Source: a virus. Taken from it: DNA of 64,000 nucleotides. The position numbers and the translations under genes are program-made. Shown here one piece after another: positions 18,934 to 62,698 of the stretch (position 1 is the first letter of the stretch; each line of letters begins with the position of its first letter). Location: positions 1 to 64,000 of the IMG/VR virus record IMGVR_UViG_3300044846_001970; one strand, 5' to 3'. The notes beneath the pieces were generated by a model. That model saw only the letters and a list, made by a program, of their open reading frames with translations. It did not search any database and was not told where the DNA came from.

Positions 18934-21714
18934 TTAACGTAGTTTAAAAGGATATACTGTATCAGCTAAAAGAAACCCTCCTTCTGCAAATATATTACCA
19001 CCCATTCTTTTTTGTTGTTTATTCATTCTCATTTGTAAATCAATTGCTCTTAAAGCATCTGCATCACTTGTTATACCTTCTTTTTTATAATCAGACATTT
19101 GATCTAATACAGATTTAGTAGGAGCTGTTGGTGTAATAGGAGTATTATTTGTATTGTAATATCCTTCATTACCTTGAGAATCTATACCCCACTTCATACC
19201 TTGAGCTGCATTAGTTGCGGCAAGTGCTCTAGCATTACCCTTCATTTTACCATACTTATTAGCAACATTTGCCCATTGATTATTATTATCTTGGGCTACA
19301 TTACTTGCCCATGTAGCATGTTGAGGATTATAAGTATCTTGAGCTTGTTTGCCAAGTAATAATTGATCCCATTGATGAGAAACATTTGCTTTTCTAAGAG
19401 CTGTTGCTTTATCAGCATTACTAGCATTAGTTTGACTAGCAAGATTAATTATATTATTTTGACCAGCTGCTTCTGCATTAAACAAAGCTGCCATAGTACC
19501 ACCCGGATTATTACCAGATACTTTACGTATTGCATCTTGTGTACTTCTAGTTTGTCCTTTAAGAAGTTCAGCTTGTCCCATATAATCTGTACCCCAAGCA
19601 TCTTCACGTACTCCTGGTGCTTTACCCATTATAGGTGCTTCATTAACATTTCTTGCACCCATTGCAACAGCTAATTCAAATTCATCTTCTGGAAGATTTT
19701 GTATTGGTGTAAAGTTTGATTCAGTTTCTTTTTCTTGTTCCCATGAATGACAATCTGTTCCACAAGGAACTATTGTTTCTTCATTAGAATAAGGGTCTGT
19801 ACAAAAACATTCCTCTTCAGGATTTTCAGGGCATGCAGAACATTCTCCTGTTGCAGGATCTTTAGTTCTTACAATAGGAGCACCATTAGCATCAACCATA
19901 GCAACACCTGTGACAGGATCAATACATGGAGGACATTCTTCTACAGGCTCTGGTTGCATATAAATAGCTTCTTCTTTTCCTTCTTCACCTTTAACTTCAC
20001 ATCCTTTTAAGTAACCTAAATTTGAAGGATCAGTAATACCTGCTTTTATCATTTCTTCAGCAGAAACTCCATAATAAGATCCACCTTTTTTAGTCATCCA
20101 AGCACATACATCTTCTTTAGTATATTTACCACCTTTTGTTACTTTTCCACGAGGTGTGAGTTTAACATTAGCACCGGAAGTACCTTCAGTTTTATTATAT
20201 TTATAATCTCCTTTTTCATCTTTTCTTTGTTCCCAAGTACTTTTATTATACTCATCTTTTTTTACTTCTCTAGTATTAATAGGTCTTCCATTTGCATCTA
20301 CAGCAGCACCTGTTACAGCTCTAGGCAAGTAACCACCATTCCTATAATATCCACCATAAGCATATTGATCAAAAGGCATATCATAACCACCCATCTGCAT
20401 ACCATAAGCTGCCATAGGAGCTTGTTGCATCTGTTGTTGTTGCATTGCCATCATTTGTTCCTCAGAAGGTTGAGCTTGTTGTTGCTGTCTTGGATCCATT
20501 TGAGGTTGTCCTTGACCACCTTGCATTTGCGCAGCCATCATCTGGGCCATTCTTGGGTCCATTTGTTGTTGAGGAGGCTGTTGCATTCCACCAGGTTGCC
20601 CTTGCATCATACCTTGTTGTTGAGCAGCCATTTGTTGTTGCTGCTGTTGAGCATTTTGTTGATATTCTGAAAGAGCTGTAAGAACAAATTCCTGAGCTTG
20701 TCTATCAGGTATATTTAAATTCATTAATACTTTTTTAATATCATCTACTGAAACTTGGTTTTGAATTAGACTAATAATAATCTCAGTCATTGGTGTACCA
20801 TTTTCCATTGCAGATCTTACCTTATCAGTAATTTCAGATAACACTTGTTCTAATCCTTTTTTAGCTTGTGGTAAAAATCCACCACGTCTCATTCCAGGTT
20901 GTTGCATACCAGGTTGTGGCATTTCTTGTGCTGTTTCTTCTGGCATAGCTACTGGAGAACCATCAGGCATTGTTGGTTGAGCACCTTGTGGTTGAGGTGC
21001 TTGTCCTTGAGGAGCACCTTCCATTCCTTGTTGTGGAGCAGATTCTTCTTTTTGAGCATCTGGAAGAATGTCTGCTTCTGTTATATTATTTTCTTCCATA
21101 TAGGCTTTTGCAACTACAGGTATACCTTGAGGAAATCCTTTTTTACTTTCTTGTGCTAAAGCTAAAGCTCCTAATTTAGATACTGCTTTTTTAATCATTA
21201 ATTGTGCAGTCTGAACAGCAATCTTATCTGATGTAGAATCTTGAAGAATACCTCTATACTTATTTAGAGTTAAAAATTGTTTTGATAAATCTGCAGGAGT
21301 ATAACCACCTTTTTTAATAGGCTTGTTAAACATTTTAAGAATACCAGGATCTTTAATCATCATAGACTTAGTATCACTAAAAATAAAACTATCATCTGGA
21401 AGATTTAATGGTACTCCATTATTTGAATGTCTTGGTCCTTTTATTTCATAAAATAAAGGATAACCAGAAGGATCAAATGTTAATACAGTCTCACCACCTT
21501 CAGCTTCTAGATTAGCTTCTTCTCTAGGAACTTTAGTAATAGTTTTTGTTTGAACTGCATCTTTACTTGAAAGCTTTAGGTCAGCTCCACCAAATGAAGA
21601 AATATCATTAGCTAATGAACCATCAACTTGATATCCTGTTTTAGCTTTAGGAGGACTAGTAACCCTTACCTTATAAATATCAGGTTCTTGAGAAATTTTA
21701 ACTCTATATTGCAT
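18934..21714 (-). CDS. Internal virion/cargo protein (926 aa) with EAEGGE-G.RHS domain, Q/M-rich region and multiple GG motifs
   Basis: ANLEAEGGETV...KGPRHSNNGVPL...FIFSD resembles a module I recognise from crAss-like cargo proteins. Also has a Q/M low-complexity tract and a Cys cluster. Confidence 0.6.
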   Translation of the reverse strand: MQYRVKISQEPDIYKVRVTSPPKAKTGYQVDGSLANDISSFGGADLKLSSKDAVQTKTITKVPREEANLEAEGGETVLTFDPSGYPLFYEIKGPRHSNNGVPLNLPDDSFIFSDTKSMMIKDPGILKMFNKPIKKGGYTPADLSKQFLTLNKYRGILQDSTSDKIAVQTAQLMIKKAVSKLGALALAQESKKGFPQGIPVVAKAYMEENNITEADILPDAQKEESAPQQGMEGAPQGQAPQPQGAQPTMPDGSPVAMPEETAQEMPQPGMQQPGMRRGGFLPQAKKGLEQVLSEITDKVRSAMENGTPMTEIIISLIQNQVSVDDIKKVLMNLNIPDRQAQEFVLTALSEYQQNAQQQQQQMAAQQQGMMQGQPGGMQQPPQQQMDPRMAQMMAAQMQGGQGQPQMDPRQQQQAQPSEEQMMAMQQQQMQQAPMAAYGMQMGGYDMPFDQYAYGGYYRNGGYLPRAVTGAAVDANGRPINTREVKKDEYNKSTWEQRKDEKGDYKYNKTEGTSGANVKLTPRGKVTKGGKYTKEDVCAWMTKKGGSYYGVSAEEMIKAGITDPSNLGYLKGCEVKGEEGKEEAIYMQPEPVEECPPCIDPVTGVAMVDANGAPIVRTKDPATGECSACPENPEEECFCTDPYSNEETIVPCGTDCHSWEQEKETESNFTPIQNLPEDEFELAVAMGARNVNEAPIMGKAPGVREDAWGTDYMGQAELLKGQTRSTQDAIRKVSGNNPGGTMAALFNAEAAGQNNIINLASQTNASNADKATALRKANVSHQWDQLLLGKQAQDTYNPQHATWASNVAQDNNNQWANVANKYGKMKGNARALAATNAAQGMKWGIDSQGNEGYYNTNNTPITPTAPTKSVLDQMSDYKKEGITSDADALRAIDLQMRMNKQQKRMGGNIFAEGGFLLADTVYPFKLR

Positions 21715-21719
21715 ATTAG

Positions 21720-24700
21720 TTATTTTAAGTATTCTATTTTACCTCCGGCAGCTTCAATTTCTTTAATCTGTTTAAGAGTAAGTGTATATACTCTTCCTTT
21801 TTGATATTGTTTATTAGGTGTACCACCCATTTTAGTCACAACATTATTACCATCAAAACCAATATTCTGAATATTTTTACCATATTGATTGTACCAACCT
21901 TTATCTCCCATTTGAGAACCAGCAATTTCTGCAGAACCAAATCCTGATTGTCCAGTATTAGGACTAGCTGCATCAGAAGATCTATTTTGTTCTCTAAATG
22001 CTTCATCCTGTTTAGCTTGACTCCAAGAATTAGCTCCCTTAGTAACTATATCAGTAAGACTTCCTTTACCAAATAAATCTGCACCCATTTGTTTAGGATC
22101 AAAGGTATATGCATTTTGTGTAATAGTTCTACCAACAAAATTTGGATCATTAAATTCTGGTTGATCAACAGTAATACCATTTTTTGCTTCTTGTAGGTAA
22201 CCACCATATTCTAAGAACTGTGCATAAGATGGAACAAAACCACCTTGTTGTCTTCTTATTACACCAAATTGATTTACAGGAGGTCCTGAAGGATTCTGTA
22301 AGCCATTGTTTTGTAAAAAAGGATTACCTAATCCTGGATTAGATAAACTAGTTCCTTGTGCATTACCTGCAGGTTGTTGTGGTTGACTAGTTCCTTGAGT
22401 AGAAGATGATGGTTGATAAGTTGTATTTGTTGCTCCTACAACAGGAACTCCTGGATTTCCAACAGCTAAATTAGGATCAGCTGGTTTACCAGGAGCATTC
22501 ATATTTACTTGAGGATTTACTGCAGGAGAACTTGGATTTAAAACATCAGGTTCATTAGCATTATCATCTGGACTACTTGGACCATCAGCATAATCTTCTG
22601 GAAATGCAGCTCTTCCTCTAGCTTCATCTGCAGCTGCTTTTTTTTCACCTTTAGCAATTTTTCTTTGAGTACTCTTTTTAAAAGAAGAATAATCTCCAGA
22701 ATTTGTTCCACTGGAGTTAGTTGCATTAGCACCAGGTGCACCATCAGTTCCATTAGTACCAGGAGTTGTTCCAGGAGCACCATCTGCACTTGCAGGATCT
22801 TTAGCAGGATCTTTAGAAGGATCAGCATACCAATCAGTAACTCTTTTATTATCAAATGGATTCCATTTATTACCTCTATCTTTATAAGTTTCTTGTCTCA
22901 TATGTTCTGTTCCTTCAGGAACATTCCAGTTAGGAGAAAAACCTTGTGTATAACTAAAGTCTTTTGAAAAACCAAAACCAAGTTTTTTTGGAGGACCAAA
23001 CTGCATATTACCTTGTTGTCCTTGTTGTGATTTTTGATATTGTAAAAATTGTTCTATTTGTTGTGGAGTAAATTGTTGTTGTCCAGGAGCAGTAGTATTG
23101 GTATTGGTAGTTGTAGTTGTTGTAGTAGGGGCTGGTTGTTTTGTATTAGAACTAGGAATATTGCTAAAAGCATTTGAGCTATTAGCACCAATTAAATTTT
23201 CATTTGGTACTCCTTGTGTATTTCCTTTAGCAAATGGATTAGTTAATTCAGCACTTAATTCTGGTTTAAATTTTGAAGAACCATCTATATTAAATTTATT
23301 TTTAGCCCATCTATCAAAACCTCCACCAGGACCAAAACTTTGAATACCTCCACCATAAGCATATTCATCTCCACCATATATAAACTTTAATAATTCAGGA
23401 TTATTAGGATCTATCATAGATTGATCAACATATCCTCCATCATCCATATATCTTCCAACTTGCATACCGTATGCTGCCATAGGATCTACATCCATATCAT
23501 CTGTATAGGGAACTTGTGAAGGATCTATAGGATCTATGGTGCCATCATTACTAGGATCTTGAGGAATAAATTTATTTAAATTTTGTTGTTTTTGATTTTG
23601 GTAAGACCCAGGGATCATTGAGGCATAAGGATTAGCAAAAGGATTTGTTAATAAACTTTCTGCACTAGGAAGACTTACCTCTGGTACAACAGGTAAACCA
23701 TCTGGACCAATACATTGATCAGAAGAAGCATCATATACAGCTCCTGGAGGACAATTTAATCCTTTTTTATTAGAAGATAAATGACCTTGTGTTGCACTTG
23801 AACTTTTTGTATTTCCAGCAACTTCATCTAAGGCTTTATTATTAACACTTGTAATAACTTTTTGTCTAACTTGTGATGGATAAGAAACTGATTTCCAACT
23901 TCCTCTATTCATTCCAGACATCATTCCTGGCATCATTCCATATGCTCCAGGTAAAAGATTCACAAGATTTCCTAAAGCTTTTACATCCCAATCAGCTGTA
24001 GCTTTTCTTATACCACCTAATGGTCCAAATTCATAACTAGTATTAACACCTGGTATTGAATGAGGTGTTCCAAATAAAGCTCTGTTAGCTCTTCTTATCC
24101 GGCCTCCACGGCCATATTCATTTTTCATAATAGTTGTATTTAATGCATTTTCATCCATTTTTGACATAGTGTGCTGTAATGCTTCTCCATAACCATGAAG
24201 TTCATCAATCCAATCATGAGGCTCTTGAGCTCCACCATTTGCTTTTGTATTCATATTTTGATAGGACTCTTCAGCTTGTTTTTTCATCATTGCCTCATTA
24301 CCCATTTGTTTTACAGTACTTGCAAACATTTTATTTTGTTTTGTATTATTACCCATTGGGTCACCAATACTTCCTGCTGGAGGTAAATAAAATTCACTGT
24401 TTTCTACTTCTTCTCCTTCTGCAGCTTTTCTAAGTTTTTTTATATAATCATTAATATATTTACTTTTACTTTGTTTACTTCCTCCAAAAGCAAAAGATGC
24501 TGGTACAGCATTAGCATCCATTCCTACAAAGTAAGGTTGTTTAGCTTCAGGAATAACATTATCATTCATATACTGTCCACCTTCTGCATACTCTGCATCT
24601 TCATAACCATCATCTTCATTAGCAAGTTCACTTCCCAAATTATTACTTTCATAGTAACCATACGTTTCACTATCAGGTATTTCTTCTACAGCTTCTACTT

Positions 24701-25007
24701 CTTCTACTTTTTTATTATAAGGAGCTTCTTTATCATATGGAGCAGTTTGTGAAGATGAGTTATAGTTATCTAATTCTTGAAGTGTATCATACATTTCATA
24801 TACAGTATCTTCAATTTTTTCTCTAGGTATTTTAAAATCTACTAATGCAGAAATAACTTCTTCTGGAGAAGTTCCATTACTTAATTCAGAATCAATGTAT
24901 GCATCAATAGTATCTGATTGTCCACCCGCTTTCTTAACAAACTTATTAAGCTTGCTAATAAATCTTGGAGTTTCTCCAGGTTGTGCTTTACGTATTTTTA
25001 CTTTCAT
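21720..25007 (-). CDS. Internal virion/cargo protein (1095 aa), largely low-complexity, many GG motifs
   Basis: Long ORF in the cargo cluster with repeated YAEGG, FAFGG, KANGG, YMDDGG, YAYGG, RQQGG, LEYGG, TKMGG. Confidence 0.6.
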   Translation of the reverse strand: MKVKIRKAQPGETPRFISKLNKFVKKAGGQSDTIDAYIDSELSNGTSPEEVISALVDFKIPREKIEDTVYEMYDTLQELDNYNSSSQTAPYDKEAPYNKKVEEVEAVEEIPDSETYGYYESNNLGSELANEDDGYEDAEYAEGGQYMNDNVIPEAKQPYFVGMDANAVPASFAFGGSKQSKSKYINDYIKKLRKAAEGEEVENSEFYLPPAGSIGDPMGNNTKQNKMFASTVKQMGNEAMMKKQAEESYQNMNTKANGGAQEPHDWIDELHGYGEALQHTMSKMDENALNTTIMKNEYGRGGRIRRANRALFGTPHSIPGVNTSYEFGPLGGIRKATADWDVKALGNLVNLLPGAYGMMPGMMSGMNRGSWKSVSYPSQVRQKVITSVNNKALDEVAGNTKSSSATQGHLSSNKKGLNCPPGAVYDASSDQCIGPDGLPVVPEVSLPSAESLLTNPFANPYASMIPGSYQNQKQQNLNKFIPQDPSNDGTIDPIDPSQVPYTDDMDVDPMAAYGMQVGRYMDDGGYVDQSMIDPNNPELLKFIYGGDEYAYGGGIQSFGPGGGFDRWAKNKFNIDGSSKFKPELSAELTNPFAKGNTQGVPNENLIGANSSNAFSNIPSSNTKQPAPTTTTTTTNTNTTAPGQQQFTPQQIEQFLQYQKSQQGQQGNMQFGPPKKLGFGFSKDFSYTQGFSPNWNVPEGTEHMRQETYKDRGNKWNPFDNKRVTDWYADPSKDPAKDPASADGAPGTTPGTNGTDGAPGANATNSSGTNSGDYSSFKKSTQRKIAKGEKKAAADEARGRAAFPEDYADGPSSPDDNANEPDVLNPSSPAVNPQVNMNAPGKPADPNLAVGNPGVPVVGATNTTYQPSSSTQGTSQPQQPAGNAQGTSLSNPGLGNPFLQNNGLQNPSGPPVNQFGVIRRQQGGFVPSYAQFLEYGGYLQEAKNGITVDQPEFNDPNFVGRTITQNAYTFDPKQMGADLFGKGSLTDIVTKGANSWSQAKQDEAFREQNRSSDAASPNTGQSGFGSAEIAGSQMGDKGWYNQYGKNIQNIGFDGNNVVTKMGGTPNKQYQKGRVYTLTLKQIKEIEAAGGKIEYLK

Positions 25008-25020
25008 AATAATATATATA

Positions 25021-25067: not shown

Positions 25068-28000
25068 TTATTTAAAACCTTTTTCTTTCATATACTTTAG
25101 AATACGTTGATATTCTTTTGCAGTAACATCAGGTTTTCTATCTGGAGAAATCATTTGATGTGATATAACATCTTTTAAAGATAAATTATATTTTGTAGCA
25201 ATAGGACTATAATATTCTATAAAAGATTTTATTTGAGCTTCTGTTAAAGGAGTATTTACTGTATTACCTTGAAACTCAACACCAATACTAAAATCATTTA
25301 CATCTTTTCTTCCATTCCATTCAGACTCTCCAGCATGGAAAGTTACTTGTTCAGGTGAAGCATATACTGTTCTTTTACCATCTTCTTCAATAACAACATG
25401 AGATGAACTTTTTCCTGGTGTCATATATTGAGTTCTAACTTGACCCTCATTATTTTTAACATCTTCATAAGCAGTATGATGTAATACAATATTTTTTACT
25501 TCATTTTTTAATTTATGACCTTTTTTATAACTTGCATCATTTTTAGTTCTAAGGTTAGGCATGTCAAGTACATACTCTTCTTCATACTCATTAACAGGAG
25601 TTTTATAATTCATTATATATAAACCATTTCCTCCAGATGAATTTTCATTGTCATATGCTTTTAATCTGTCTGCAGTAAGTTTTTTATCATCATAAGATAA
25701 TCCTCTTGAATATGTTCCATTATCTAAAGTCCAAGCTTCAAGATATTGATTAGTTCCTTTTAATTTTTTAAATTCTTTTTTTATAGTTGATAAACTTCCA
25801 GATACTAAATATTGTTGTTTAGTTACAGGGTTAACAAAAAGAATTCTTCCTCCTTGAATTGAACCATAATAATCATCTTTATCTTTACCTTTTGTTAAAA
25901 TATTTAAAGAACCATCTTTTATTTTACCATTCTCAAGTACTTTTACTTTAGGTTGTTTGTATCCAGGATTACCTGATTTAGAACCATCTACATATAAATC
26001 TTCAATATCTATAATCTTATTCATATAAGTTTGACTAAACTTCCAGTCTTTGTTATTTTTAAAATCTTTAAATTGTCCAGTATGTAAATTACCATCAGCA
26101 TCTAAAGCAAATACACTTGTATTATCTGTTATATTTTTTAATTTATCAGAATTTGTGAATGGATGGAAAGTTGTAAGTTCTAAACCTTCAGATTCAATAT
26201 CATTATAATCTCCTCTATTTCTATAACCTAATTTTATATTTGATATAGGTAAGACTTGTTGTTTATAATTTCTATTACTATTAGGTATAGTAAATGATTG
26301 TTGAGTACTATTTAAATTTTTATAATACTCACTTATGCCTAATGGATTATCATTTTCTTTTAATTCAGGTACTTTAATATCATCATCATCTATAAGCCCA
26401 TAAGTTTTACTTTTACGAATTATACCTTGACTAACATATTCTATGTACTCACCTATAGATTCTTTAGTATCTTTTATAAATTCACCTGTGTCTTCAATTG
26501 TTTCTTTAAAAGGATAATTTGTTTGAAAATCAGACATCTTAGGTGTAATAGGTTTTATTTCTTTTCCATTAGCATCATAAGATTTTTTATTAAAATCTTG
26601 TTTACTAAATTGAGCTGCCATAGAATTAGGAATAGGCTCTACTTTATTTATTGGTTCTGGTTTTAATAAAGCTTTTTGTTGGGCAATAGTAGTTAACCTA
26701 TTAAATAAATCTTTTTCAAAATTTTCATTAATATTTTCTTTTGCTTTAGTTTTACCTTGTGTAAATGCTTGATCTATATATTTTTTTATATTACTAGGAG
26801 AAACAATTTTTGGTTCTTCAAAAGTAGTTATTCCAAATTTACTTAATATATCTTTTGGTGTTTCAACCTTTACTTCTTTTTGTGCTATACCAGGTCTTTG
26901 TAAATTTTTTATAAAAGTAGCTACATCAATTTTTGGTGCAACAATAGGATCTTTTGCTTTAGGTTTAGGAGTTAGTATTGGTTTAGCATTTTCTATTTGT
27001 TTAGGAAATACCTTAGAAAAAGGAATTCCTTTTGGAGCTATAGTTGCTGCATACTTTTTAAGATCTTCTTTAACAACAGTTTCTATTTTCTTTTCTATTT
27101 GCTTTGGGAATACTTTAGGTAGAGGAATTCCTTTTGGCTTACTTTGTGCAGCATACTTACTAAGGTCTTCTTTAATAGGAGTACTTAACTCTGAAAACAT
27201 ATTTGTTAAACCTTCTTTAGTACCTATACGTTTAGCAACTAAGTCTTCAAGAGTAGCACCTTTACTAATCATTCTGCTTACCATATTTTTGTATGCTTCA
27301 TGATTAAAAGTTTCTTTTCTATTAGGTATTTTAGCTTCTCCAAATTCTCCTTCTAATATTTTTTTTCTTAAACTCATATTAGATTCAAAACTACCATCTG
27401 TTAAACCTTGTTTTTTAGCTTCAGACCATGGTGTACCAGTATATTGTTGCCAAAGTTGAGATACTGTTCCTCCATCAGCTTCTTTAGATAATTCATTATT
27501 ATGTATTTCTTCTACTACATATCCTTCAGCAATAAGTTTTTGAATTTCTGATTTAGAAATATTTGTTTCTATTGCCCCACCTTCTTTTTTAAGTTTACCA
27601 ACTCTTTGTGCTAATTTAGAAAATACTATTGGAGCTCCAGTATTTATAGTTTTACTTGTTCCATCTGCTTTTCTAATTATATTAAATCCATCTCCTGATT
27701 CTACAGAATTTTCAAATGAAAATAATGATCTTGCTCCAGCTAAGAATGGATATAATGTTGGATCACTATACTTTGTAAATGGTAATATATTAGATGCACC
27801 TTTTATTAAATTAAATGTTCCACCTCCTATATCTCCTTGAGAATAATCAACTAAAGCATTTGGTATATGTTTAGTTCCTGTATTATACACACCATAACCT
27901 CCTAATAAATTATTAGCATTAAGTCCTGGTAAAGCTTTAATAGGTTCATACTTTAAATAAGGAGATGCTTTTTTAGATACCTTCATTATAGTTCTAGGCA

Positions 28001-31000
28001 CCAATCCAAAAAAGGCATCTGCTGGACCAGCTAAAGTTTTTGCTGCTAATGCTGATCCTCTAAGTCCTGATGCTACTTCTGCTGCTGGTAATATAATATT
28101 TAAAGGATTTGCTAATGTAGCTTGATCATAACTAACATTAGATTTTAATTCTCCACTTAATATACCAGGAGATTCTTGATAATTTCCTCCAGAAGCAGTA
28201 GATAAATCTACTACAGAATTCATAATACCCGCTCCTAAAGCATCTACACCTGATAATGTTTCAAGAGCACCTGTAGAACTATTATGTATAGCATCATATT
28301 CTTTTTTAGTAAAGTGTTTACGAAGAGCTTTTGAATCTATATAATCTTTATTATAATCACCTAATAAAGCTGGAACACCTGTTGCTTTAATTAAAAAATT
28401 ACCAAGTTCTTGTGCTCCAGCAGCAGTTTTAGCCCAAAGAGATGGTTTTAATTTAGATCCATATTTTGAGTTTGCTGCCATATCATAACTTACAGCTCCT
28501 TTATCTGCTAATTTTTCAACTAACTCAGCATGATTATTTGGATTAATTCCATTATCTTTAGCAAATTTTTCAATTACTGCACTGTTCTTGTCATATTCCC
28601 AATTTTTGTTATAATTACTTTCTACTTTTTCTGGAAAGTTATCTTGACTAAGTCCAGCCAATCTATTTAAACCTTTATGTTTATTAAGATATTCAGCCTT
28701 TTTTTGATATACATAAGCATCTCTAGGATGAGCTTCTTCATAAGCAGTTGTATATGGTGAGTATTGATTAGTATTTACTTGTCGTATATCTTGTACTCTT
28801 TCTGTAAGAGCCATTGGACTTACACACTCTCCTGTTACAGGATCTCTTTGAAATCCTTGTGGACAAGGTTCTCCACCATCATCCATATGATTTAATGAAG
28901 GTACAGAAATGTCTTCTATAACATAACCTCCTTTTCTATATTCTTCTATTTCTTCTGGAGATAAGTCAGCTATTATTCCACCATCTTCATAATCTTTTCT
29001 TCTGTGTAAATAAGGAGTTGAAAAAGTATGTTTCTTTTTACCATTAAATAAAGGACCTAAAGGAAAATGTTTATTTAATCTTGGTGTAGTAAAAGAATGC
29101 CATTTTTTATCCCATTCCCAATCTGATCCTTTAAGTTCTTCTGGATAGTCTTGTGTACCCATAGATTCTATTAAAGGACTTTCTTGTTTATTTATTACTG
29201 GTTCTACAGTAGGTACTATTACTTCTTCTTTAACAGGATCTATTATTTTAACAGGATCTATTACTTCTTCTTTAATGGGTTCAATTGGTATAACAGGTTC
29301 TTCTTCTTTATTATAACCTAATAAATAATTTGATGGTTTTGCATAGACTGGATAAAAATGTCCACCACCAGGATGTCCTTTAAAACCTATTGGTTTAACT
29401 GAAGATTTAGCCATCATTTTTTTCCATTCACCAAATGAAACCATTGGTTCATTTATAAATGGAATACCATCTTGAGGTGGCATTAATTTTCCAGTACCAT
29501 ATGACATCCACGGATCCCATCCAGTTCTAGGTATAGACTCAAAAGTTTTATAAAATTTATCTTTAGCTGATATAGTTCCATATTTTTTAAGTCTAGCAGC
29601 CTCATAAGTATTATGATTGTTAACTCTAGTAATATATTGATTATATAATTTTTGTTGTTCTTTTTTTGTTATATTTGATTTTGCTAATTCTGCCTCACTA
29701 TATACTATTTTTGTATTTTTAGGAATAATTTTACATTCAGTTCCTGTCCAGTATTGTCCTTCGGGACAACCACCTTCCATAGGAGAAAAAATTATTTTTT
29801 GTTCAGAAGCTCCACCTTTCTTTGCATGTATTAATCCTTGACCACCACACTTATGACAAGTAGTAATATCATCACCACCATCTGCAGCATCCCATTCCCA
29901 ACCACATTTTTTACATGTTACTTTCTTGGTAAGTAAAGCACCACCTTTAGCAGCTACTTTAATTTCTTCTTCTCCTTCATTATTTTTAGAAATATTTTGA
30001 AGCATCCAAAGAATTTCCTCATCTGTAAATTGTTTTCTAAGATCTTTAATTGGTTTCATTGGTTGCCAATTATCATCACTTCTTTTTTTATTTATATAAT
30101 TTTGAAATATTTCTGGAGTAATTTGTTCTGTAAATGGATCATAAATACCTTCTTTTTTAGCAAGTTGTCTAATTTCTCCTAGTCTTGCTCTAACTTCAGT
30201 TGGTTGAGAAATATAGTCATGACCTATAGTCTTCCATTCTTTTTGGTTAGAGTCAGAAGATATTTTATGATTTGTTTGAATTATATTTTTTAAATTTTCA
30301 AATTGTTTTTGAAAATCTTTGTCATCTTCAGTAAAACCTTGAGAATATAATATTTGTTTTATTTCTTCATCAGTTTGCATACTATAAGCTTCAGGCCATT
30401 TTTCTACTCTAGATTTATAGTCTTGATTATCTTTCCAATTAGAACCTCTATTTCTAGTAATATACAATTGATCAGATTCAGGCATTACTCTTTCACTAGA
30501 TTCTTCCTTATCATTTGGAAATCTTGGATCTTTAGAATTTATAAAATCCCAATTATATATTCCTTTTGGTCTATCAGATGTATGAAAATATTCATGTGTG
30601 TACATAGAAGGTCCATACTCAAAACCTTCAGGATACACTTTTACCTCTCCTGTTAAACTATTTGAAGTTGCTGCGGGGTTAAAACCATGAGAACTAATAG
30701 TTGACGTAGCCATAATATTTATCGGAGGTATATCAGCAATATTTTCTTTTCTAAGTTTTGTAACATAATCTGCACCTAGTTGATTACCATCAAAACTATT
30801 AAGAACCATTTGATTATACATAGGTGAGTCATGCCAACCCTTAACAAAGTCTAATCCTTCATCAGCATATTTAGGTTCATTTACTAAAGCTTTTTTATAA
30901 GCTTCATTTTTTTCTATATCCTCAAAATATTTTTTTTCTGTAATTTTTTCTTTTTTTCTAATAGCTTTTGTTTCTTCATCAGGTTCAGAAATTAATTTTT

Positions 31001-49810: not shown

Positions 49811-49812
49811 GA

Positions 49813-53290: not shown

Positions 53291-54556
53291 TTAAAATCTC
53301 TTGAACAAATTATTTTGTCTAGAGAGTGTCTTTTGAGGTTGTCTACTTGGAGAAGCTGTTCTTCTTTCTTCTTCTTGCTCATAATTACTTGAACCTAGTT
53401 TCCTAGACTCCTCAGTTTTTAATTTCCTTACTGTATCTTCTACAGTTTTTTTACTTCCTTGTTCTCTTACTTTACCTTTATATCCATCTGGATCTGCAAG
53501 TAACCAAAGTGCTTCTGCAATTAAGTCATGTCTTGGTTCTACAAACTGATACTTCTCTAAAAGGTGGCCTAACATATTTGTAGGTTTCCCAGATATTGAA
53601 GGATAGTTTGGTTGAACTAAACCAGAAAAAAGTAAACCTTGTGTTTTCTTATCTAGTCTAAGACCTCCTAACTCACCAGCTTGTAATGTATTAAAGACAT
53701 TATCTTGATAAGCTTTTGCAGCATTTGATTGTTGTTGTCTTCTAGATTCTTGATCTGCTAGTTGTCTTTGAACAATCTCATTTTGCATTCTATCTAACTT
53801 TGGTTTAAACTGAACAGCTTTTTGTTCTAATCTATCTAAGTCTAACCAATCTTGTATTTCTTCTTCAATTTCTTCTGGAGTTCCAAAACCAGTAGCATAT
53901 AGATACTGTCTTGCAATCTCTGCTTGATCACCTTCTTCAGAAGGATCAAGTTGTCTCATTTCTTCTACTTGAGCTAATGTTCTAAATAGACCTTTAAGAT
54001 CTTGTCCTCCATCAGCTACATACTTAGCAGCATATTGAAGTTCTTCTGGTAAAGATTGATAAAATTCTTTAGGAACATCATTCCTTACTTTATCTTCTCT
54101 CTCTTGAAAGTTAGCTTCAAATAATTCTCTAAAGTCTTTAGTGGTATATTCATCTAATGATTTATCATCATCAAAAGCCATTAAAGATCCTTCTTCAATC
54201 ATTTTAGTTGCTAACTCATAAAGACCAGACTTATCTACTTTTGGTCTTCCTTTATTACCAGTCTCTTCTTCTTGACTGATTAAACTATCTAATTCAGCAA
54301 TAGTTTCATCAACTTCTTCTTTCTTTTCTCTTGCCTCCTCTCTTTCTTTAGGAGTGGTTTTACTCATGTCAAGGAACGCAGTGTCTACATTTTCTTTTGA
54401 AAACATAGTCTTTGGTTTATCATCTTCTTCCTTAGAGGGAAGCATTACACTTTCTGCTCCAGGGTTTCCAAATATCTCATCAATATTTACATCTACTTGA
54501 CCTACCGTTGTAGTGTCTAAAAACTGAGTTTCCCCAGTATTTGTTACATTATCCAT
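53291..54556 (-). CDS. Putative capsid scaffolding protein
   Basis: Acidic, helical protein between portal and major capsid genes. Confidence 0.65.
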   Translation of the reverse strand: MDNVTNTGETQFLDTTTVGQVDVNIDEIFGNPGAESVMLPSKEEDDKPKTMFSKENVDTAFLDMSKTTPKEREEAREKKEEVDETIAELDSLISQEEETGNKGRPKVDKSGLYELATKMIEEGSLMAFDDDKSLDEYTTKDFRELFEANFQEREDKVRNDVPKEFYQSLPEELQYAAKYVADGGQDLKGLFRTLAQVEEMRQLDPSEEGDQAEIARQYLYATGFGTPEEIEEEIQDWLDLDRLEQKAVQFKPKLDRMQNEIVQRQLADQESRRQQQSNAAKAYQDNVFNTLQAGELGGLRLDKKTQGLLFSGLVQPNYPSISGKPTNMLGHLLEKYQFVEPRHDLIAEALWLLADPDGYKGKVREQGSKKTVEDTVRKLKTEESRKLGSSNYEQEEERRTASPSRQPQKTLSRQNNLFKRF

Positions 54557-54651: not shown

Positions 54652-57399
54652 TTATTTCTTTTTCACTTCTCCTCCTTTATCAAATTTATTTTTATTTACT
54701 CTTGCTATTTCAAGTTGCTTATTTGCTATATCTCTTTGAACATTAAGCTTCTCTCTTTCTAAATCTATTTTGTTTCTATCAATAATCATTCTATTAGTAT
54801 CCTTATCTCTTTGTAAAGATGTTTGAGCTTCATACTGTTCAGTCTGTCTAATATCTTTCATAGCATCTTGATAGTCAGATATTTCATTTTTATTAACATC
54901 TTGCATTGCTCCAAAACCTGCTGATCTAATTTCAGCAACAAGCACTTCATTTTGTCTATCTTTTTCTTTCTGAGTTTCCTCATAAGTTCTTCTAAGTTGT
55001 GCTTCCTCTGCATCTGCTTTAATTTTTTGTTCTTGCATTTGTTGTTGAGACTGCATCTCTTGTTCTTTCTGCTGTTTTAGTTTATTCTCAGAATCTTTAA
55101 GTACTGTATTAAGTTCAGCAATGGAATCAGATTGTACAATTTTACCAAGATCATATACTGATGCTCCTGTAGTATTGTTATTCATAGCCATTTGTTTTAA
55201 TTGTTCTAAGATGGCTCTATGGTTTGCAGTTGTACTACAGAAGATATTAAGATCTCTCATTAATAAATCAGTACCATTTATTTCAAAATTAACCTTTTCA
55301 TCAGCTGATGTAACATAAGTTAATCTTGCTGAAGGATTTGTTGAATTATAATACTGAGCTAAGTCAGTTCTCATTTGATGTACTCTTGGCATTAAGTAAT
55401 CACAGTGTTGTATAAAGAATACTTCTGTTTGTGCATAAGAAGCACTTTGTGCTTGTTCTACTCCAGTAGCAGTCATCTGAGATAACTGTTGTCCCATTCT
55501 TTGTGCATTAACACCAATCACTTCATATGCTTGTTGTTTAAAATGGTTTGCTAAGTTTACTCTTGACATTAATCTTTCTGTCTGAGATAGATCTAGTTTT
55601 TGGAAATGATTAAAGTTAAGAGCATTCTCTGTATTAGTAATAGATGTATCTAAAGGAAGCATTCCAAAATTCTTCATTGCTACATATGCTTTAGATAAAT
55701 TACCTTTTCCCCAGTCTTCTCCTAAAGAGTGTCTAGGAAGAGTGTTCTGGTCTAACATGATAATAGTACCTAACTCATCTACTAATATGTCAGCAATCTG
55801 GTTATTTACTATGTTATATCCAATCTGGAATGGCTTCATTAAATCAATGAGTGCAGTTGACTTAGTATTTCTATCAGAGAATACTGCACCTTCTACAGGA
55901 AGTTTACAACCATATAAAGTACTATCACCTTTAAATTGAAACTTAAGTGGTCCAATTTTTTTCTTTTCTACACCAATATACATAGGTGTAAATCCTCCTG
56001 GATTATTCATACCCCAGAAAGAAGGAATATTTGGTCCTATCTTTACACCACCCCATACTTCATTAATCCAGATCCAATCTATGTGTTCACCAAATATTAA
56101 ATTATCTTTAGTTTTATTTTTATTTAATCTAGTATCATAAATAGGTTTAATAGTTGTCTTGTAATTTTCATCTACAATTTCCATTTGAACTTCACCTTCA
56201 TCAGTAACAAGTATTAAATGGCCAACTTTTCTTTGAGACTTCCAATATACTGTTGTGCAACGTAATAAATAAGCAGTACCTTGATTATAGTAATCTTCAC
56301 TTTCAGCTAATATCTCAGTAATAATATCTCCTCCGCTAACTACAGCTCCTCCCATTGCAGTTGTATATTGTCTCATTGCAAGAGATGGCATGTTAGTATT
56401 CCAATCATGAGTCTTAGTACCATCATAGAAAGTACCATCATTTTGATAACCACCAATATTATAACCAGCAGATCTAATAGGATAAATAGCTTCTAATGCA
56501 ACCATTTGTTCTTCATCCATTAAATATCCATATTTATCTAGAGCATCAGAAGGAGTTAACATATCTGTTTTACCTACCCAGTTAGCTTGAGATATGTATC
56601 TTGCATCTGGAGATTTATGATAAAAAGTTACAGCAGGATTCCATAGCTCTACTTCATAGTCATCTTCCATCATTCTCATATGCCAGAATTCTCTGTCAGT
56701 AATAAGCATATCTCTGAATGCTCTTTCCTCAAGTTCATTCATACCAAATCTTTCAACATCTACTTTATGTTGGTGAGTAGCCCACTCTTCTACCATAGAT
56801 CTATAATCTTTTCTAAAGAACATTTCTATTTCTGGAAGAGATTTTAATTTATCATCTGCTGTTTCTTGTTGAAATTCTTCTGATGCAGGATCCATTCCTT
56901 GATCCATAAGAGCAGATGCTATTTTTAATTTAGCATCAGATAAAAGAACTTCTTCTACCATGGCTCTTTTTTGCTCAAGCATTTCATTATAAGATGTATC
57001 ATCTACTGCCCGGTATGTAAGTTTAGTAGATCTCTTTGCAAATTCAGCTACTAAAACATTAATAACATTTGGAATAATAGGATAAAACTTTAACTCTAAT
57101 GCAGATTCATCTTCTTTAGTAAGTACTTCTACAATATCTCTGTACTCATTATTATCTTCAACTATATAATCAGACTTATCTATAATACCTTTTGCAAGCT
57201 TATAATTCTTCATTAGCCTACGGGCATTTCTGCGGAGTTGTTTAAGACCTTGCCATTCAACCCAATCTAAATTCCATGCAGCCCATCTATCATCTTTTTC
57301 TTCTTTGGATAAAAATTGAAGTGGTTGGGTAATACTACCCATTCTATTAGTTTCAACTTTGGCTCCTGCTTTAGCCTGAAGTGCATTAATTATTTTCAT
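54652..57399 (-). CDS. Portal protein
   Basis: 915 aa directly after terminase. FYPIIPNVINVL, WINEVWGGVKIG, CKLPVEG, LMKPFQIGYN motifs typical of crAss-like portals; coiled-coil C-terminus. Confidence 0.9.
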   Translation of the reverse strand: MKIINALQAKAGAKVETNRMGSITQPLQFLSKEEKDDRWAAWNLDWVEWQGLKQLRRNARRLMKNYKLAKGIIDKSDYIVEDNNEYRDIVEVLTKEDESALELKFYPIIPNVINVLVAEFAKRSTKLTYRAVDDTSYNEMLEQKRAMVEEVLLSDAKLKIASALMDQGMDPASEEFQQETADDKLKSLPEIEMFFRKDYRSMVEEWATHQHKVDVERFGMNELEERAFRDMLITDREFWHMRMMEDDYEVELWNPAVTFYHKSPDARYISQANWVGKTDMLTPSDALDKYGYLMDEEQMVALEAIYPIRSAGYNIGGYQNDGTFYDGTKTHDWNTNMPSLAMRQYTTAMGGAVVSGGDIITEILAESEDYYNQGTAYLLRCTTVYWKSQRKVGHLILVTDEGEVQMEIVDENYKTTIKPIYDTRLNKNKTKDNLIFGEHIDWIWINEVWGGVKIGPNIPSFWGMNNPGGFTPMYIGVEKKKIGPLKFQFKGDSTLYGCKLPVEGAVFSDRNTKSTALIDLMKPFQIGYNIVNNQIADILVDELGTIIMLDQNTLPRHSLGEDWGKGNLSKAYVAMKNFGMLPLDTSITNTENALNFNHFQKLDLSQTERLMSRVNLANHFKQQAYEVIGVNAQRMGQQLSQMTATGVEQAQSASYAQTEVFFIQHCDYLMPRVHQMRTDLAQYYNSTNPSARLTYVTSADEKVNFEINGTDLLMRDLNIFCSTTANHRAILEQLKQMAMNNNTTGASVYDLGKIVQSDSIAELNTVLKDSENKLKQQKEQEMQSQQQMQEQKIKADAEEAQLRRTYEETQKEKDRQNEVLVAEIRSAGFGAMQDVNKNEISDYQDAMKDIRQTEQYEAQTSLQRDKDTNRMIIDRNKIDLEREKLNVQRDIANKQLEIARVNKNKFDKGGEVKKK

Positions 57400-62310: not shown

Positions 62311-62338
62311 TCTATACTTAGAGAAGCATAATTAAAAA

Positions 62339-62698
62339 TTACCCTTTAGTTCTTGGTTTTACCATTTTTTTTACATTGCTTATTACTGTTTTTGCATTAG
62401 TAACTTTAGCTGCAATTTTAGGATGGTTCTTTAAAAATTTACCACCACCTATTGGTCCACCATTTTTTTCTTGTTTTAACATTTTTTTAAGACCAAGTCC
62501 TGCAGCTGTAGCAGCACCAATACCTAATAAGGCACCTAATGCGCGACCACCACCTCCTCCACCTCCAGAAGATGTTCTGTATCTAGTTACTTTTCCACAA
62601 CCACTTTTCTTTTTTCTTTTTCTTTTTTTACCAGAAGCATCCATATATTCTTCCATACAAGAATCATCCATTGATCCTCCTGTTTCATACTTTTTCAT
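62339..62698 (-). CDS. Small basic protein with GG motifs and hydrophobic segment
   Basis: YETGG, EKNGG; GGGGGGGRALGALLGIGAATAAGLGLKK. Confidence 0.65.
   Translation of the reverse strand: MKKYETGGSMDDSCMEEYMDASGKKRKRKKKSGCGKVTRYRTSSGGGGGGGRALGALLGIGAATAAGLGLKKMLKQEKNGGPIGGGKFLKNHPKIAAKVTNAKTVISNVKKMVKPRTKG

What the first reader, a model, noticed from the sequence alone, without database searches (positions are those of the whole stretch)
18934..62698. Shared double-glycine motif across about ten internal virion proteins: candidate GG-based processing or capsid-loading system
Seen: a motif roughly [MYFAKR]-[AKEDQR]-x-G-G recurs dozens of times. 2106-aa protein: YKAGG, FDKGG, AAKGG, AKKGG, YEDGG, MDDGG, KKEGG, EADGG. 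1095-aa: KKAGG, YAEGG, FAFGG, KANGG, MDDGG, YAYGG, RQQGG, LEYGG, TKMGG. 926-aa: MRRGG, MQMGG, YAYGG, YRNGG, KRMGG, FAEGG. It also occurs in the small basic proteins at 47849-50517, the 119-aa gene at 62339 and the portal C-terminus (FDKGG). It sits at module boundaries and termini and is not obviously enriched in terminase, the tail proteins or the two giant proteins. Established: GG-type sites direct maturation cleavage in adenovirus (AVP) and ASFV polyproteins (pS273R), and T4 uses short capsid-targeting sequences for internal proteins. Inference: these motifs are either protease sites that cut cargo polyproteins into independent effectors or multivalent tags that load cargo into the procapsid. 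I know of no description of such a system in crAss-like phages.
Basis: partly seen in the sequence, partly recalled or inferred. Interest (0 to 1): 0.85.

Follow-up and report, generated by a model that had tools for sequence, protein, structure and literature searches.

The report
Double-glycine boundary motif in phage cargo
A short motif (a hydrophobic residue, two other residues, then two glycines) really does mark the ends and internal joints of the proteins that this crAss-like phage packs inside its head. It is conserved across a large group of related phages and most likely acts as a cutting or loading signal, but no enzyme or binding partner was found.

Summary
In the window, [MFY]-x-x-G-G occurs 24 times against about 5 expected in three cargo proteins, the small Lys-rich proteins and the portal. 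The rest of the proteome is at expectation, even with shuffles that keep local composition. A regex fixed on the window replicates in three related genomes. Across 79 related loci it occurs 778 times against 157 expected on the cargo side, and 38 against 35 on the giant-protein side.

The GG pairs are the best-conserved residues in the cargo families. Their codons vary, so selection acts on the protein.

The motif ends leader-like N-termini, precedes Lys-rich C-tails and bounds shuffled cassettes. In two cases a stand-alone gene starts where fused relatives carry KKGG.

Cleavage after GG is my preferred reading (0.4). An uncleaved docking tag (0.3) and a passive hinge (0.2) remain open. No known GG-directed or prohead protease family was detected.

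The portal tail and the 119-aa gene are weak members, and ΦcrAss001 does not clearly share the motif. An earlier scan note on an overlapping window flagged the same tag.

The parts
25068..31388 (-). 2106-aa cargo polyprotein built of GG-bounded cassettes: N-terminal leader, HExxH region, Zn-ribbon, two mini-domains and a C-terminal Amidase_2
   Evidence: 20 GG against 11 expected, and 9 reader-regex hits against 1.3 (0 of 300 shuffles). Amidase_2 E=5.5e-18. Cassette boundaries.
21720..25007 (-). 1095-aa cargo protein
   Evidence: GG residues have mean conservation 0.78 against 0.27 for all columns in 19 homologues. In 37 C-termini at 24% mean identity, the only invariant columns are two GG pairs and one Glu.
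18934..21714 (-). 926-aa cargo protein
   Evidence: More than 1000 homologues. GG conserved in 77-88 of 88 homologues at query positions 42, 73, 136, 278, 442, 454, 905 and 912; the GGs in the Q/M-rich low-complexity stretch are not conserved.
47849..48628 (-). 259-aa Lys-rich small protein with 4 motif sites
48631..48969 (-). 112-aa Lys-rich small protein ending ...MKKGG + 9-residue Lys tail
48972..49328 (-). 118-aa Lys-rich protein. Its C-terminal module follows YQVKKGG and is a stand-alone gene in 2 of 5 relatives that have the module.
49331..49564 (-). 77-aa Lys-rich protein with an N-terminal leader carrying two GG and a third GG before a Lys-rich tail
49577..49810 (-). 77-aa conserved small basic protein with one GG (SIMGG)
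49813..50517 (-). 234-aa Lys-rich protein with a tandem 10-residue GG array, ending RKMGG + ATKKK
54655..54684 (-). Portal C-terminal tail FDKGGEVKKK. A weak member, not conserved in the clade.
   Evidence: GG present in G000, G001 and G006 (locus L104); absent in G004, G005 and loci L105-L108.
29811..29954 (-). Zn-ribbon cassette bounded by GG on both sides (aa 479-526 of the 2106-aa protein)
   Evidence: Among 9 distinct contexts in related loci, 9 have GG within 14 aa upstream and 8 have GG within 16 aa downstream. Similarity stops at the GGs.
28872..28991 (-). Internal mini-domain 1, flanked by YEDGG and MDDGG (aa 800-839)
27468..27593 (-). Internal mini-domain 2, flanked by KKEGG and EADGG (aa 1266-1307)
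21723..21836 (-). C-terminal KMGG site plus terminal mini-domain of the 1095-aa protein
   Evidence: The last 30 or so residues are modelled at pLDDT 85-90, as helix, GG, then an extended end (no strand in the DSSP listing). Invariant GG pairs.
30582..30596 (-). HEYFH string: a candidate zincin active site, unverified
   Evidence: No Pfam family at E<=5. Atlas lead LPD23 at 0.91 only.
5351..5365 (-). HEAWH string in the giant virion protein, conserved in 4 of 4 genomes: a candidate zincin, unverified
53291..54556 (-). 421-aa acidic protein between portal and capsid genes, presumed scaffold from its position and composition; a possible receptor for tags
   Evidence: No Pfam or PHROG family. 71-78% identical in 8 relatives.

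Best explanation
Phi-x-x-G-G (Phi = Met, Tyr or Phe) is a motif selected at the protein level that closes each cassette of the proteins packed inside the capsid of this clade of crAss-like phages. In the small proteins its consensus is K-M-K-K-G-G-[A/S]-[V/T]-K-K.

Most likely reading (inferred, not shown): the motif is a processing site cut after the second Gly by a maturation protease that is not yet identified and is probably carried in the virion. Cutting would do three things. It would remove short Lys/Met-rich N-terminal leaders. It would release short Lys-rich C-terminal tails. It would split cargo polyproteins and fused small proteins into their units: wall amidase, HExxH domain, Zn-ribbon, mini-domains and DNA-binding basic modules. 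The leaders and tails may first serve to recruit the proteins into the procapsid, as the T4 capsid-targeting sequence does before gp21 removes it.

Shown: enrichment, position-specific signature, conservation, location at termini and junctions, cassette shuffling, and gene fission/fusion at the motif. Inferred: that the proteins are virion-internal (from synteny with ΦcrAss001 cargo genes and their place in the head module), that cleavage occurs, and the enzyme.
For: 1. Specific enrichment confined to cargo and small basic proteins, robust to local shuffles. It replicates in 3 relatives and across 79 loci: 778 against 156.6 on the cargo side, 38 against 35.2 downstream.

2. Sequence information is concentrated at -3, -2 and -1 (0.54, 0.46, 0.36 bits) and is lower at +1 and +2 (0.28, 0.21). 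In 125 sites of 42 hypervariable small proteins from 9 genomes: Met at -3, 47 against 5.2 expected; Lys at -2, 62 against 24; Ala/Ser/Thr at +1, 70 of 125. A pattern weighted to the P side with a small P1' is typical of GG-directed proteases (recalled knowledge).

3. Termini: GG lies in the first 30 aa of 20 of 38 and in the last 45 aa of 26 of 38 cargo and basic proteins (shuffle means 7.8 and 11.5). For other proteins the figures are 29 and 43 of 394. In 16 of the 40 small proteins that have a GG, only 4-9 residues follow the last GG.

4. Cassettes are bounded by the motif. The Zn-ribbon cassette has GG upstream in 9 of 9 and downstream in 8 of 9 contexts. The mini-domain lies within 3 aa of the C-terminus in 48 of 83 instances; of the 35 internal copies, 24 have GG within 20 aa downstream.

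5. Natural fission and fusion. Module 1 is a stand-alone gene in 7 of 9 genomes and follows KMK[KS]GG in 2 of 9. Module 2 is stand-alone in 2 of 5 and follows [FV]KKGG in 3 of 5. Cutting after GG would reproduce the stand-alone N-terminus to within 2-4 residues.

6. Selection acts on the protein: Gly codons at the sites are mixed GGT/GGA, as elsewhere.

7. Precedent. [quoted passage not shown] Adenovirus protease cleaves DNA-bound precursors and a basic C-terminal peptide is released (PMC4740752, passages). MPTase domains have been proposed to process virion-delivered polyvalent proteins (PMC5512222, passages).
Against: - No protease was identified. Pfam S78, C39, C5, C48 and ClpP give 0 of 5 genomes. 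The S77 search was silent everywhere, including its controls.
- The late-module proteins of 100 aa or more, apart from overlapping alternative-frame ORFs, give no peptidase family. All were scanned with PHROGs; Pfam was run on all except the 549-, 150-, 232-, 538-, 727-, 276- and 215-aa proteins.
- HExxH strings have no family support.
- Tandem sites 7-10 residues apart would yield very small peptides.
- In the 926 and 1095 families, +1 aromatic and +2 Val/Ile, often followed by Pro, are conserved. That looks more like a binding or structural element.
- At least one GG class is a structural turn in a confidently modelled mini-domain.
- In ΦcrAss001 the resolved gp45 domain begins A425-F-G-G, so that GG is not cut there, and the authors model gp45 as one chain. 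The fixed regex is not enriched in gp45 (3 against 1.33; 44 of 300 shuffles reach it).
- The giant virion proteins lack the motif.
- There is no proteomic evidence of any kind for this clade.
Confidence: 0.4

Rival explanations
1. Uncleaved docking or 'sticker' motif. Phi-x-x-G-G-x-Phi is a short linear motif that binds a conserved procapsid component (scaffold, capsid interior or portal) or other cargo modules. Its many copies recruit and condense internal proteins near the portal. Nothing is cut.
For: Tandem copies spaced 7-13 residues apart, and up to about 20 copies per protein, suit binding by avidity. Conservation on both sides of GG in the 926 and 1095 families. The tags are conserved while the proteins that carry them are hypervariable, whereas candidate receptors are 71-96% identical across relatives. 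In ΦcrAss001, gp45 segments are held by the portal wing and the tail rings (PMC10172136, section 10 and passages). The terminal mini-domain sits within 3 residues of the stop in 48 of 83 instances, like a C-terminal docking peptide.
Against: No partner was identified. The giant virion proteins are presumably packaged without the motif. Sequence information is weighted to the N-terminal side of GG. The fission/fusion junctions and the cassette boundaries are explained more simply by separable units.
Confidence: 0.3
2. Passive hinge or turn. GG with flanking hydrophobic residues is only a flexible joint or beta-turn that separates small modules, so that cargo can be stored partly unfolded and threaded through the tail. 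It recurs because modules are shuffled together with their linkers.
For: Most sites fall in regions the structure models leave at low confidence. One GG class is a helix-to-strand turn in a confident mini-domain. Glycines in tight turns are generally the most conserved residues. Cassette shuffling is evident.
Against: A passive linker does not predict a nine-fold excess of Met at -3, the exclusion of aromatics at -2 (0 of 61), or the +2 Val/Thr/Ile preference. It does not predict invariance at 24% overall identity, or enrichment at the extreme N- and C-termini where nothing is being joined. The low model confidence may only reflect shallow alignments.
Confidence: 0.2
3. DNA-binding unit. In the Lys-rich proteins, K-M-K-K-G-G-A-V-K-K is a repeated DNA-contacting element of protamine- or histone-like head proteins.
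For: The carriers are 17-33% Lys+Arg and sit in the head module. The tails after GG are runs of Lys. In adenovirus, short basic peptides bind DNA and slide on it (PMC4740752).
Against: The same core occurs in acidic contexts in cargo proteins (YEDGG, MDDGG, YEEGG, FQDGG). Met, Tyr and Phe at -3 are not expected for a DNA contact. So DNA binding may explain the flanks but not the shared core.
Confidence: 0.1
4. Artefact of composition, low complexity or a nucleotide-level signal.
For: Some GGs lie in Q/M/G-rich low-complexity stretches and are not conserved.
Against: Local-window shuffles, out-of-sample replication, conservation above that of lone glycines and mixed synonymous codons with no GGAGG bias.
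Confidence: 0.02

Closest known systems
T4 internal proteins: capsid-targeting sequence plus gp21 prohead protease
   Same: Hypervariable, basic, packaged proteins that share only a short tag (PMC3012670, passages). Here the small Lys-rich proteins have no BLAST match between relatives yet share the motif.
   Different: In T4 the tag is a single N-terminal peptide of about 10 residues cut at L/I-x-E (recalled). Here the tag is Phi-x-x-GG, found at the N-terminus, the C-terminus and internally, often in tandem. No prohead protease family was detected.
Adenovirus protease (adenain) sites in core-protein precursors, and the pVIc basic C-terminal peptide
   Same: Hydrophobic residue, GG, then a small residue. 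The substrates are basic, DNA-bound proteins. A short basic C-terminal peptide is released (PMC4740752, passages; the consensus (M/I/L)-X-G-G|X is recalled, not seen in a call).
   Different: The hydrophobic residue is at -3 here, not -2. Pfam C5 and C48 models find nothing in 5 genomes. This is a bacterial podovirus, and cleavage is unproven.
Polyvalent proteins with MPTase (zincin-like) domains of phages and conjugative elements
   Same: Large virion-delivered multidomain proteins, with a wall hydrolase here. Autoprocessing into units has been proposed (PMC5512222, passages). HExxH strings occur in the cargo and giant proteins.
   Different: That paper defines no cleavage motif: 'glycine' and 'linker' occur 0 times in its text. 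The zincin assignment here has no HMM support; there is only an atlas lead to LPD23 at 0.91.
ΦcrAss001 cargo protein C1 (gp45)
   Same: Same gene position, after the tail genes and before the RNAP-associated giants. GG-rich (21 against 13.3 expected), with [FY]GG sites and a GG plus Lys-rich C-terminus.
   Different: No detectable sequence homology. The fixed regex is not significant. The resolved domain starts at AFGG, so it is not cut there.
Double-glycine leader peptides of bacteriocins with C39 peptidase
   Same: Short N-terminal leaders that end in GG and are attached to varied downstream modules. An example is the leader of about 28 residues ending in GG that is shared by a 56-aa protein in L107 and a 116-aa protein in L108.
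   Different: No C39 domain. That leader consensus has its hydrophobic residue at -4 (recalled). The context there is export, not encapsidation.
Prohead-protease processing of ejected proteins in giant phages (SPN3US, phiKZ)
   Same: Many packaged and ejected head proteins share one short cleavage motif (PMC10052503; search listing and start of abstract only).
   Different: A different motif ending in Glu (recalled), and a dedicated prohead protease, which was not found here.

Membership tests
Crassvirales (crAss-like phage) | Crass-type tail ring proteins, portal, capsid and terminase in a conserved block | tested here: met
   Pfam CrAss_Ring_1 1.4e-09 and CrAss_Ring_2 2.4e-26. PHROG portal 1.1e-89, major head protein 5e-32 and TerL 1.5e-63. 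The portal hits crAss-like phages by tblastn at 21-32% identity.
Adenain-type GG-directed virion maturation | A clan CE cysteine protease is encoded | tested here: not met
   Pfam C5 and C48: 0 of 5 genomes at E<=0.1. Sequence HMMs only; a remote fold relative cannot be excluded.
Adenain-type GG-directed virion maturation | Site consensus (M/I/L)-X-G-G|X or (M/I/L)-X-G-X|G (recalled) | tested here: inconclusive
   GG and a small +1 residue fit. The hydrophobic residue is at -3 or -1, and aromatics are absent at -2 (0 of 61).
Adenain-type GG-directed virion maturation | Precursors are actually cleaved in the particle | not testable with these tools
   There are no proteomic data for this clade.
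T4-type capsid-targeting sequence with prohead protease | Diverse internal proteins share only a short tag | tested here: met
   The window's 112- and 234-aa proteins have no BLAST hit at 1e-5 in 3 relatives, and the 259-aa protein has only a 49-aa match. The motif logo is shared by 42 hypervariable proteins in 9 genomes.
T4-type capsid-targeting sequence with prohead protease | A prohead protease (S77, S78 or ClpP-like) is encoded in the head module | tested here: not met
   S78 and ClpP: 0 of 5 genomes. S77: 0 of 5, but its control was silent, so that search is uninformative. No peptidase family in the head-module proteins.
Double-glycine leader / C39 system | C39 peptidase domain | tested here: not met
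   0 of 5 genomes.
Polyvalent protein with MPTase | A recognisable zincin/MPTase domain in the polyprotein | tested here: inconclusive
   HEYFH in the 2106-aa protein and HEAWH in the giant protein, the latter conserved in 4 of 4 genomes. No Pfam hit at E<=5 on the segments. Atlas lead LPD23 at 0.91 with 128 shared features, a weak score.
Polyvalent protein with MPTase | Several unrelated effector domains in one virion-delivered polypeptide | tested here: met
   Amidase_2 at residues 1962-2086. A Zn-ribbon cassette, mini-domains and an HExxH region in separable cassettes. Delivery in the virion is inferred from synteny only.

The most novel reading that the evidence does not exclude
A large clade of environmental crAss-like phages, which lack a classical prohead protease, uses one peptide code for its internal proteins. 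Every cassette of the cargo polyproteins, and every member of a hypervariable array of protamine-like head proteins, ends in Phi-x-x-G-G. A protease carried in the virion, possibly one of the HExxH domains in the cargo itself, cuts after GG inside the filled or filling capsid. That would be a bacterial-virus counterpart of adenovirus core maturation. It would free effectors, short Lys-rich peptides and 25-35-residue mini-domains, and it would allow new cargo to be added simply by inserting a cassette between two GG motifs.
Probability: 0.3. Interest if true: 0.85.

Novelty: new variant of a known kind. Interest (0 to 1): 0.68.

Why it matters
How crAss-like phages load and mature the proteins they inject is unknown. 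The ΦcrAss001 atlas (PMC10172136) describes cargo zones but no targeting or processing signal: 'cleav', 'proteoly', 'glycine', 'protease' and 'scaffold' each occur 0 times in its text.

A conserved code with a clear sequence logo turns that question into testable experiments: mass spectrometry for termini at GG, reporter fusions to the leader, and GG-to-AA mutants. If the code holds, foreign proteins could be packaged in these phages as the T4 targeting sequence allows in T4. It would also explain how a hypervariable set of internal proteins, which are plausible counter-defence or DNA-condensing factors, can turn over quickly while still being packaged.

The cassette grammar is also a practical annotation tool for the otherwise unannotatable cargo genes of this clade. 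At least 168 IMG/VR stretches encode a relative of the 926-aa protein.

Tried and rejected
Things that led nowhere or were rejected:

- Structure of the 926-aa protein with a 28-row alignment: mean pLDDT 46.9, unusable for fold search.
- Homology of the 926-aa N-terminal region to the portal-bound domain of ΦcrAss001 gp45, which I suspected by eye. hhalign gave probability 0.3%. Smith-Waterman gave z=0.1 against shuffles. A PDB profile search found nothing relevant. Dropped.
- Extending the motif to ΦcrAss001. The fixed regex is not enriched in gp45 (3 against 1.33; 44 of 300) or in the whole proteome (13 against 14.3). gp47 has 4 against 0.89 (1 of 300), which I did not follow up.
- Systematic BLAST mapping of relatives' protein ends onto the 2106- and 1095-aa proteins gave a single case, 10 residues from a GG, because the cargo proteins diverge too fast. 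I replaced it with motif-anchored cassette counts.
- Zincin annotation: Pfam at E<=5 on five segments gave nothing relevant. The atlas gave only a weak LPD23 lead and nothing for the 338-aa protein.
- Nucleotide-level signal (an SD-like GGAGG): rejected.
- Complex prediction with three chains (the 421-aa scaffold-like protein, 926-aa residues 1-260, and the last 60 residues of the 1095-aa protein as partner) returned 'no answer' (score 0.24, mark 0.32). This is neither for nor against binding.
- Megablast of 11 kb of the head module against the phage collection: no match.
- Literature searches that found no description of a GG motif in crAss-like or other phage internal proteins: search listings; term search inside PMC10172136. 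The supplements and extended-data figures of PMC10172136 (gp45 peptide map, virion MS table) could not be seen, and they may bear on whether the gp45 termini are present.

Full report
WHAT THE WINDOW IS. All genes of interest lie on the minus strand of a linear IMG/VR virus record of 84.5 kb, about 71% complete. It is a distant crAss-like phage:
- Pfam CrAss_Ring_1 and CrAss_Ring_2.
- PHROG portal, major head protein and large terminase.
- Portal tblastn hits to crAss-like, Cellulophaga and Flavobacterium phages at 21-32% identity.

The gene order, in the direction of transcription, is:
- holin (63506-63979), amidase endolysin (62862-63509) and a Gly-rich 119-aa membrane-like protein (62339-62698);
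- terminase, portal (54652-57399), a 421-aa acidic protein, the capsid protein (51648-53264) and a 338-aa protein;
- six small Lys-rich genes (47849-50517);
- ring and tail genes, then an 1803-aa structural protein;
- three 'cargo' genes of 2106, 1095 and 926 aa (18934-31388);
- a 1221-aa protein and two giant proteins.

That the three cargo genes and the small basic genes encode virion-internal proteins is inferred. It rests on their position relative to ΦcrAss001 gp45/gp46 and gp47-50 (PMC10172136, section 10). It is not shown.

IS THE MOTIF REAL?

Raw GG excess is modest for any single protein, for example 14 against 7.4, 16 against 12.4 and 20 against 11.0. It is clear for the set as a whole: 81 against 45.4, reached by 0 of 300 shuffles. 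The other 23 proteins give 73 against 65.5.

I therefore derived a simpler rule from a position table. At the 61 isolated GG sites of the set:
- position -3 is aromatic 15 times (5.0 expected) or Met 7 times (1.9);
- position -2 is basic 22 times (8.3) and never aromatic;
- position +1 is aromatic 13 times (5.0);
- position +2 is aliphatic 22 times (9.4).

The 55 GG sites of the other proteins show no such pattern.

[MFY]..GG survives shuffling restricted to 15-, 30- or 60-residue windows: 24 against about 5, reached by 0 of 300 shuffles. The rest of the proteome gives 8 against about 8. So this is not a by-product of local composition. The Gly codons at the sites are a GGT/GGA mix like other Gly codons, with no GGAGG bias. 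Selection therefore acts on the peptide.

REPLICATION OUTSIDE THE WINDOW. The 926-aa protein has more than 1000 relatives in metagenomes. A profile of 28 of them found 168 IMG/VR stretches, of which 79 distinct loci were kept. I fetched three complete relatives and the head modules of five more.

With the regex fixed beforehand, the cargo blocks of G001, G004 and G005 hold 12, 15 and 19 sites against 2.7, 2.2 and 3.6 expected. Their small-basic blocks hold 5, 5 and 6 against 0.7, 0.5 and 0.5 (0 of 300 each). The remaining 103-110 proteins per genome are at or below expectation.

Across the 79 loci there are 178 distinct ORFs of 250 aa or more on the cargo side. They hold 778 sites against 156.6 expected. 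The 65 ORFs on the side of the 1221-aa and giant proteins hold 38 against 35.2. These sequences are related to one another, so the counts are not independent events. The small basic proteins are the most independent replicate. The window's 112- and 234-aa proteins have no BLAST hit at 1e-5 in the three relatives, and the 259-aa protein has only a 49-residue match.

CONSERVATION.
- In 88 full-length homologues of the 926-aa protein, GG is kept in 77-88 of 88 at eight sites. It is lost at the sites inside the Q/M-rich low-complexity stretch.
- Glycines in GG pairs have mean conservation 0.72, against 0.47 for all columns and 0.49 for lone glycines. In 19 homologues of the 1095-aa protein the figures are 0.78, 0.27 and 0.36.
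- In 37 C-terminal regions of the 1095 family, at 24% mean column identity, the only invariant columns are two GG pairs and one Glu.

ANATOMY: THREE CLASSES OF GG.

(a) Linker sites, Phi-x-x-GG, in regions that the models leave at low confidence.

(b) A turn inside a mini-domain of 25-35 residues. Its pattern is [E/D]-L-[T/S]-x-E-E-I-x-x-[Y/F]-x-x-x-G-[G/Y/F]-x-[I/V]-E-[E/Y]-[I/L].
- It occurs only in cargo-block proteins: 7 hits in four whole genomes, all in the cargo block.
- There are 83 distinct instances. Of these, 48 lie within 3 residues of the C-terminus, and 44 of those 48 have a GG within 22 residues upstream. Of the 35 internal copies, 24 have a GG within 20 residues downstream.
- The terminal copy in the 1095-aa protein is modelled at pLDDT 85-90, as helix, GG, then an extended end. 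DSSP lists no strand there. The 150 residues before it are below 50.

(c) In the small Lys-rich proteins the logo is sharp. It comes from 125 sites in 42 hypervariable proteins of 9 genomes:
- Lys at -4: 57 (24 expected);
- Met at -3: 47 (5.2), plus Tyr 11 and Phe 10;
- Lys at -2: 62, and Lys at -1: 47;
- GG;
- Ala 31, Ser 25 and Thr 14 at +1;
- Val 27, Thr 27 and Ile 11 at +2;
- Lys at +3: 57.

Gly is also raised near -8 and +8/+9, which reflects tandem arrays with a period of 9-10 residues.

In 26 of 42 proteins a GG lies in the last 25 residues, and in 19 of 42 in the first 25. In 16 of the 40 that have a GG, only 4-9 residues, mostly Lys, follow the last GG.

Over four genomes, GG is in the first 30 residues of 20 of 38 cargo and basic proteins and in the last 45 residues of 26 of 38. 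The shuffle means are 7.8 and 11.5, with maxima 15 and 21 in 200 shuffles. For the other proteins the figures are 29 and 43 of 394, against shuffle means of 31.6 and 46.9.

THE MOTIF BOUNDS MOVABLE CASSETTES.

A Zn-ribbon cassette begins right after GG and ends in K-GG. It occurs in 9 distinct contexts: after an HExxH region, after a basic N-terminal region, or after a mini-domain. GG is upstream in 9 of 9 contexts and downstream in 8 of 9. Similarity stops at the GGs.

The 2106-aa protein reads as a string of units that are separate genes or differently ordered in relatives.

Two modules of the small proteins give natural fission/fusion tests:
- One module is a stand-alone gene in 7 of 9 genomes. 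In the other 2 it is preceded by an N-terminal extension that ends K-M-K-[K/S]-G-G.
- Another module is stand-alone in 2 of 5 genomes and follows [F/V]-K-K-G-G in 3 of 5, including the window's 118-aa protein.

In both cases, cutting after GG would recreate the stand-alone N-terminus to within 2-4 residues.

A leader of about 28 residues that ends in K-M-K-[A/S]-G-G is attached to two unrelated downstream modules in neighbouring genomes.

WHAT DOES NOT BELONG. The portal tail has GG in 3 of 9 genomes only: G000, G001 and G006. The 119-aa protein sits beside the holin and endolysin. Its GG count is mainly a Gly run, and it has one motif-like site. The giant proteins, terminase, capsid and tail proteins are not enriched.

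MECHANISM. The data show a peptide element that is recognised or constrained as a peptide, confined to the presumed internal proteins, and placed at termini and cassette joints.

I favour cleavage after GG (0.4), possibly after the leaders and tails have served in recruitment. My reasons are:
- sequence information is weighted to the N-terminal side of GG: 0.54, 0.46 and 0.36 bits at -3 to -1, against 0.28 and 0.21 at +1 and +2;
- the +1 residue is small in the basic proteins;
- the proteins have leader-like N-termini and short tails;
- the fission/fusion junctions fall at the motif;
- the mini-domain is terminal when free and is followed by a GG when internal.

Precedents exist:
- Adenovirus protease cuts DNA-bound core precursors and frees a basic C-terminal peptide (PMC4740752, passages). 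Its (M/I/L)-X-G-G consensus is recalled, not seen in a call.
- MPTase domains have been proposed to process polyvalent virion proteins (PMC5512222, passages).

Evidence against the cleavage reading:
- No protease was found. S78, C39, C5, C48 and ClpP give 0 of 5 genomes, and S77 was uninformative.
- There is no peptidase family among the late proteins of 100 aa or more, setting aside overlapping alternative-frame ORFs. All were scanned with PHROGs. Pfam was run on all but seven of them, of 549, 150, 232, 538, 727, 276 and 215 aa.
- The HExxH strings are strings only: HEYFH in the 2106-aa protein, HEAWH conserved in the giant protein of 4 of 4 genomes, and HETMH in a 148-aa protein outside the window. 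An atlas lead to LPD23 scored 0.91.
- Tandem sites 7-10 residues apart, and the conserved GG-[Y/F]-[V/I]-[P/D] in the 926 and 1095 families, look more like a binding or structural element.
- One GG class is demonstrably a turn.
- In ΦcrAss001 the ordered gp45 domain begins A-F-G-G.

An uncleaved docking or 'sticker' motif (0.3) and a passive hinge (0.2) therefore stay open. A DNA-contact role may explain the Lys flanks but not the core, which also occurs in acidic contexts.

COMPARISON AND NOVELTY. The system works like known motif-coded handling of internal virion proteins in T4, the giant phages and adenovirus. It fails the membership tests for each of these, because no matching protease is present and the motif register differs.

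I found no description of such a motif in crAss-like or other phage internal proteins in four full-text searches or in the ΦcrAss001 atlas.

I rate it a new variant of a known kind. An earlier first-stage note on an overlapping window of this genome flagged the same tag.

Noticed in passing
window 46680-47132 (-): A 150-aa protein in the structural block, between a ring protein and the neck gene, matches PHROG 858 'starvation-inducible transcriptional regulator' (Dps-like) at 2.1e-21. In locus L107 its BLAST match was missed, but the 209-aa ORF in the same position looks ferritin/Dps-like by eye. A Dps-like gene inside the virion module is unusual.
   Followed up: no
G000 68765-69686 (beyond the window) compared with the head modules of relatives: Two conserved small basic proteins, of 90 and 112 aa, lie next to the capsid gene in all eight relatives. 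In the window's own record they lie about 17 kb away, followed by a 102-aa Lys-rich protein with three GG sites. This is either a rearrangement or an assembly join.
   Followed up: partly
window 27390-27467 (aa 1308-1333 of the 2106-aa protein); G004 54334-55026; L106 382-aa ORF: A module of about 26 residues (pattern SQLW...TG..WSEAK..GLTDGS) is shared between the cargo polyprotein and small Lys-rich head proteins of relatives. This links the two protein classes.
   Followed up: partly
window 5351-5365 (-), and giant proteins of G001, G004 and G005: The string VDVYHEAWH, with a downstream LAEDF, is conserved in the giant virion protein of 4 of 4 genomes. No Pfam family matches the surrounding 500 residues.
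   Followed up: partly
G001 109258-109677: A 139-aa Cys/His-rich protein that looks HNH-like by eye is inserted in the small-basic-gene array of one relative only.
   Followed up: no
window 62339-63979 (-): Lysis cassette: holin (Pfam Phage_holin_4_1, 3.3e-05), amidase endolysin (PHROG 1794), and a 119-aa protein with a run of seven Gly and a hydrophobic stretch.
   Followed up: partly
ΦcrAss001 (L102/L103) gp47, record 46119-53144: The RNAP-associated gp47 has 4 [MFY]..GG sites against 0.89 expected (1 of 300 shuffles reach it). It is the only ΦcrAss001 protein with more than one site near significance.
   Followed up: no
window 8102-8113: An earlier scan note reports an in-frame TAG between the 2362-aa ORF and the giant ORF. 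I did not examine it.
   Followed up: no
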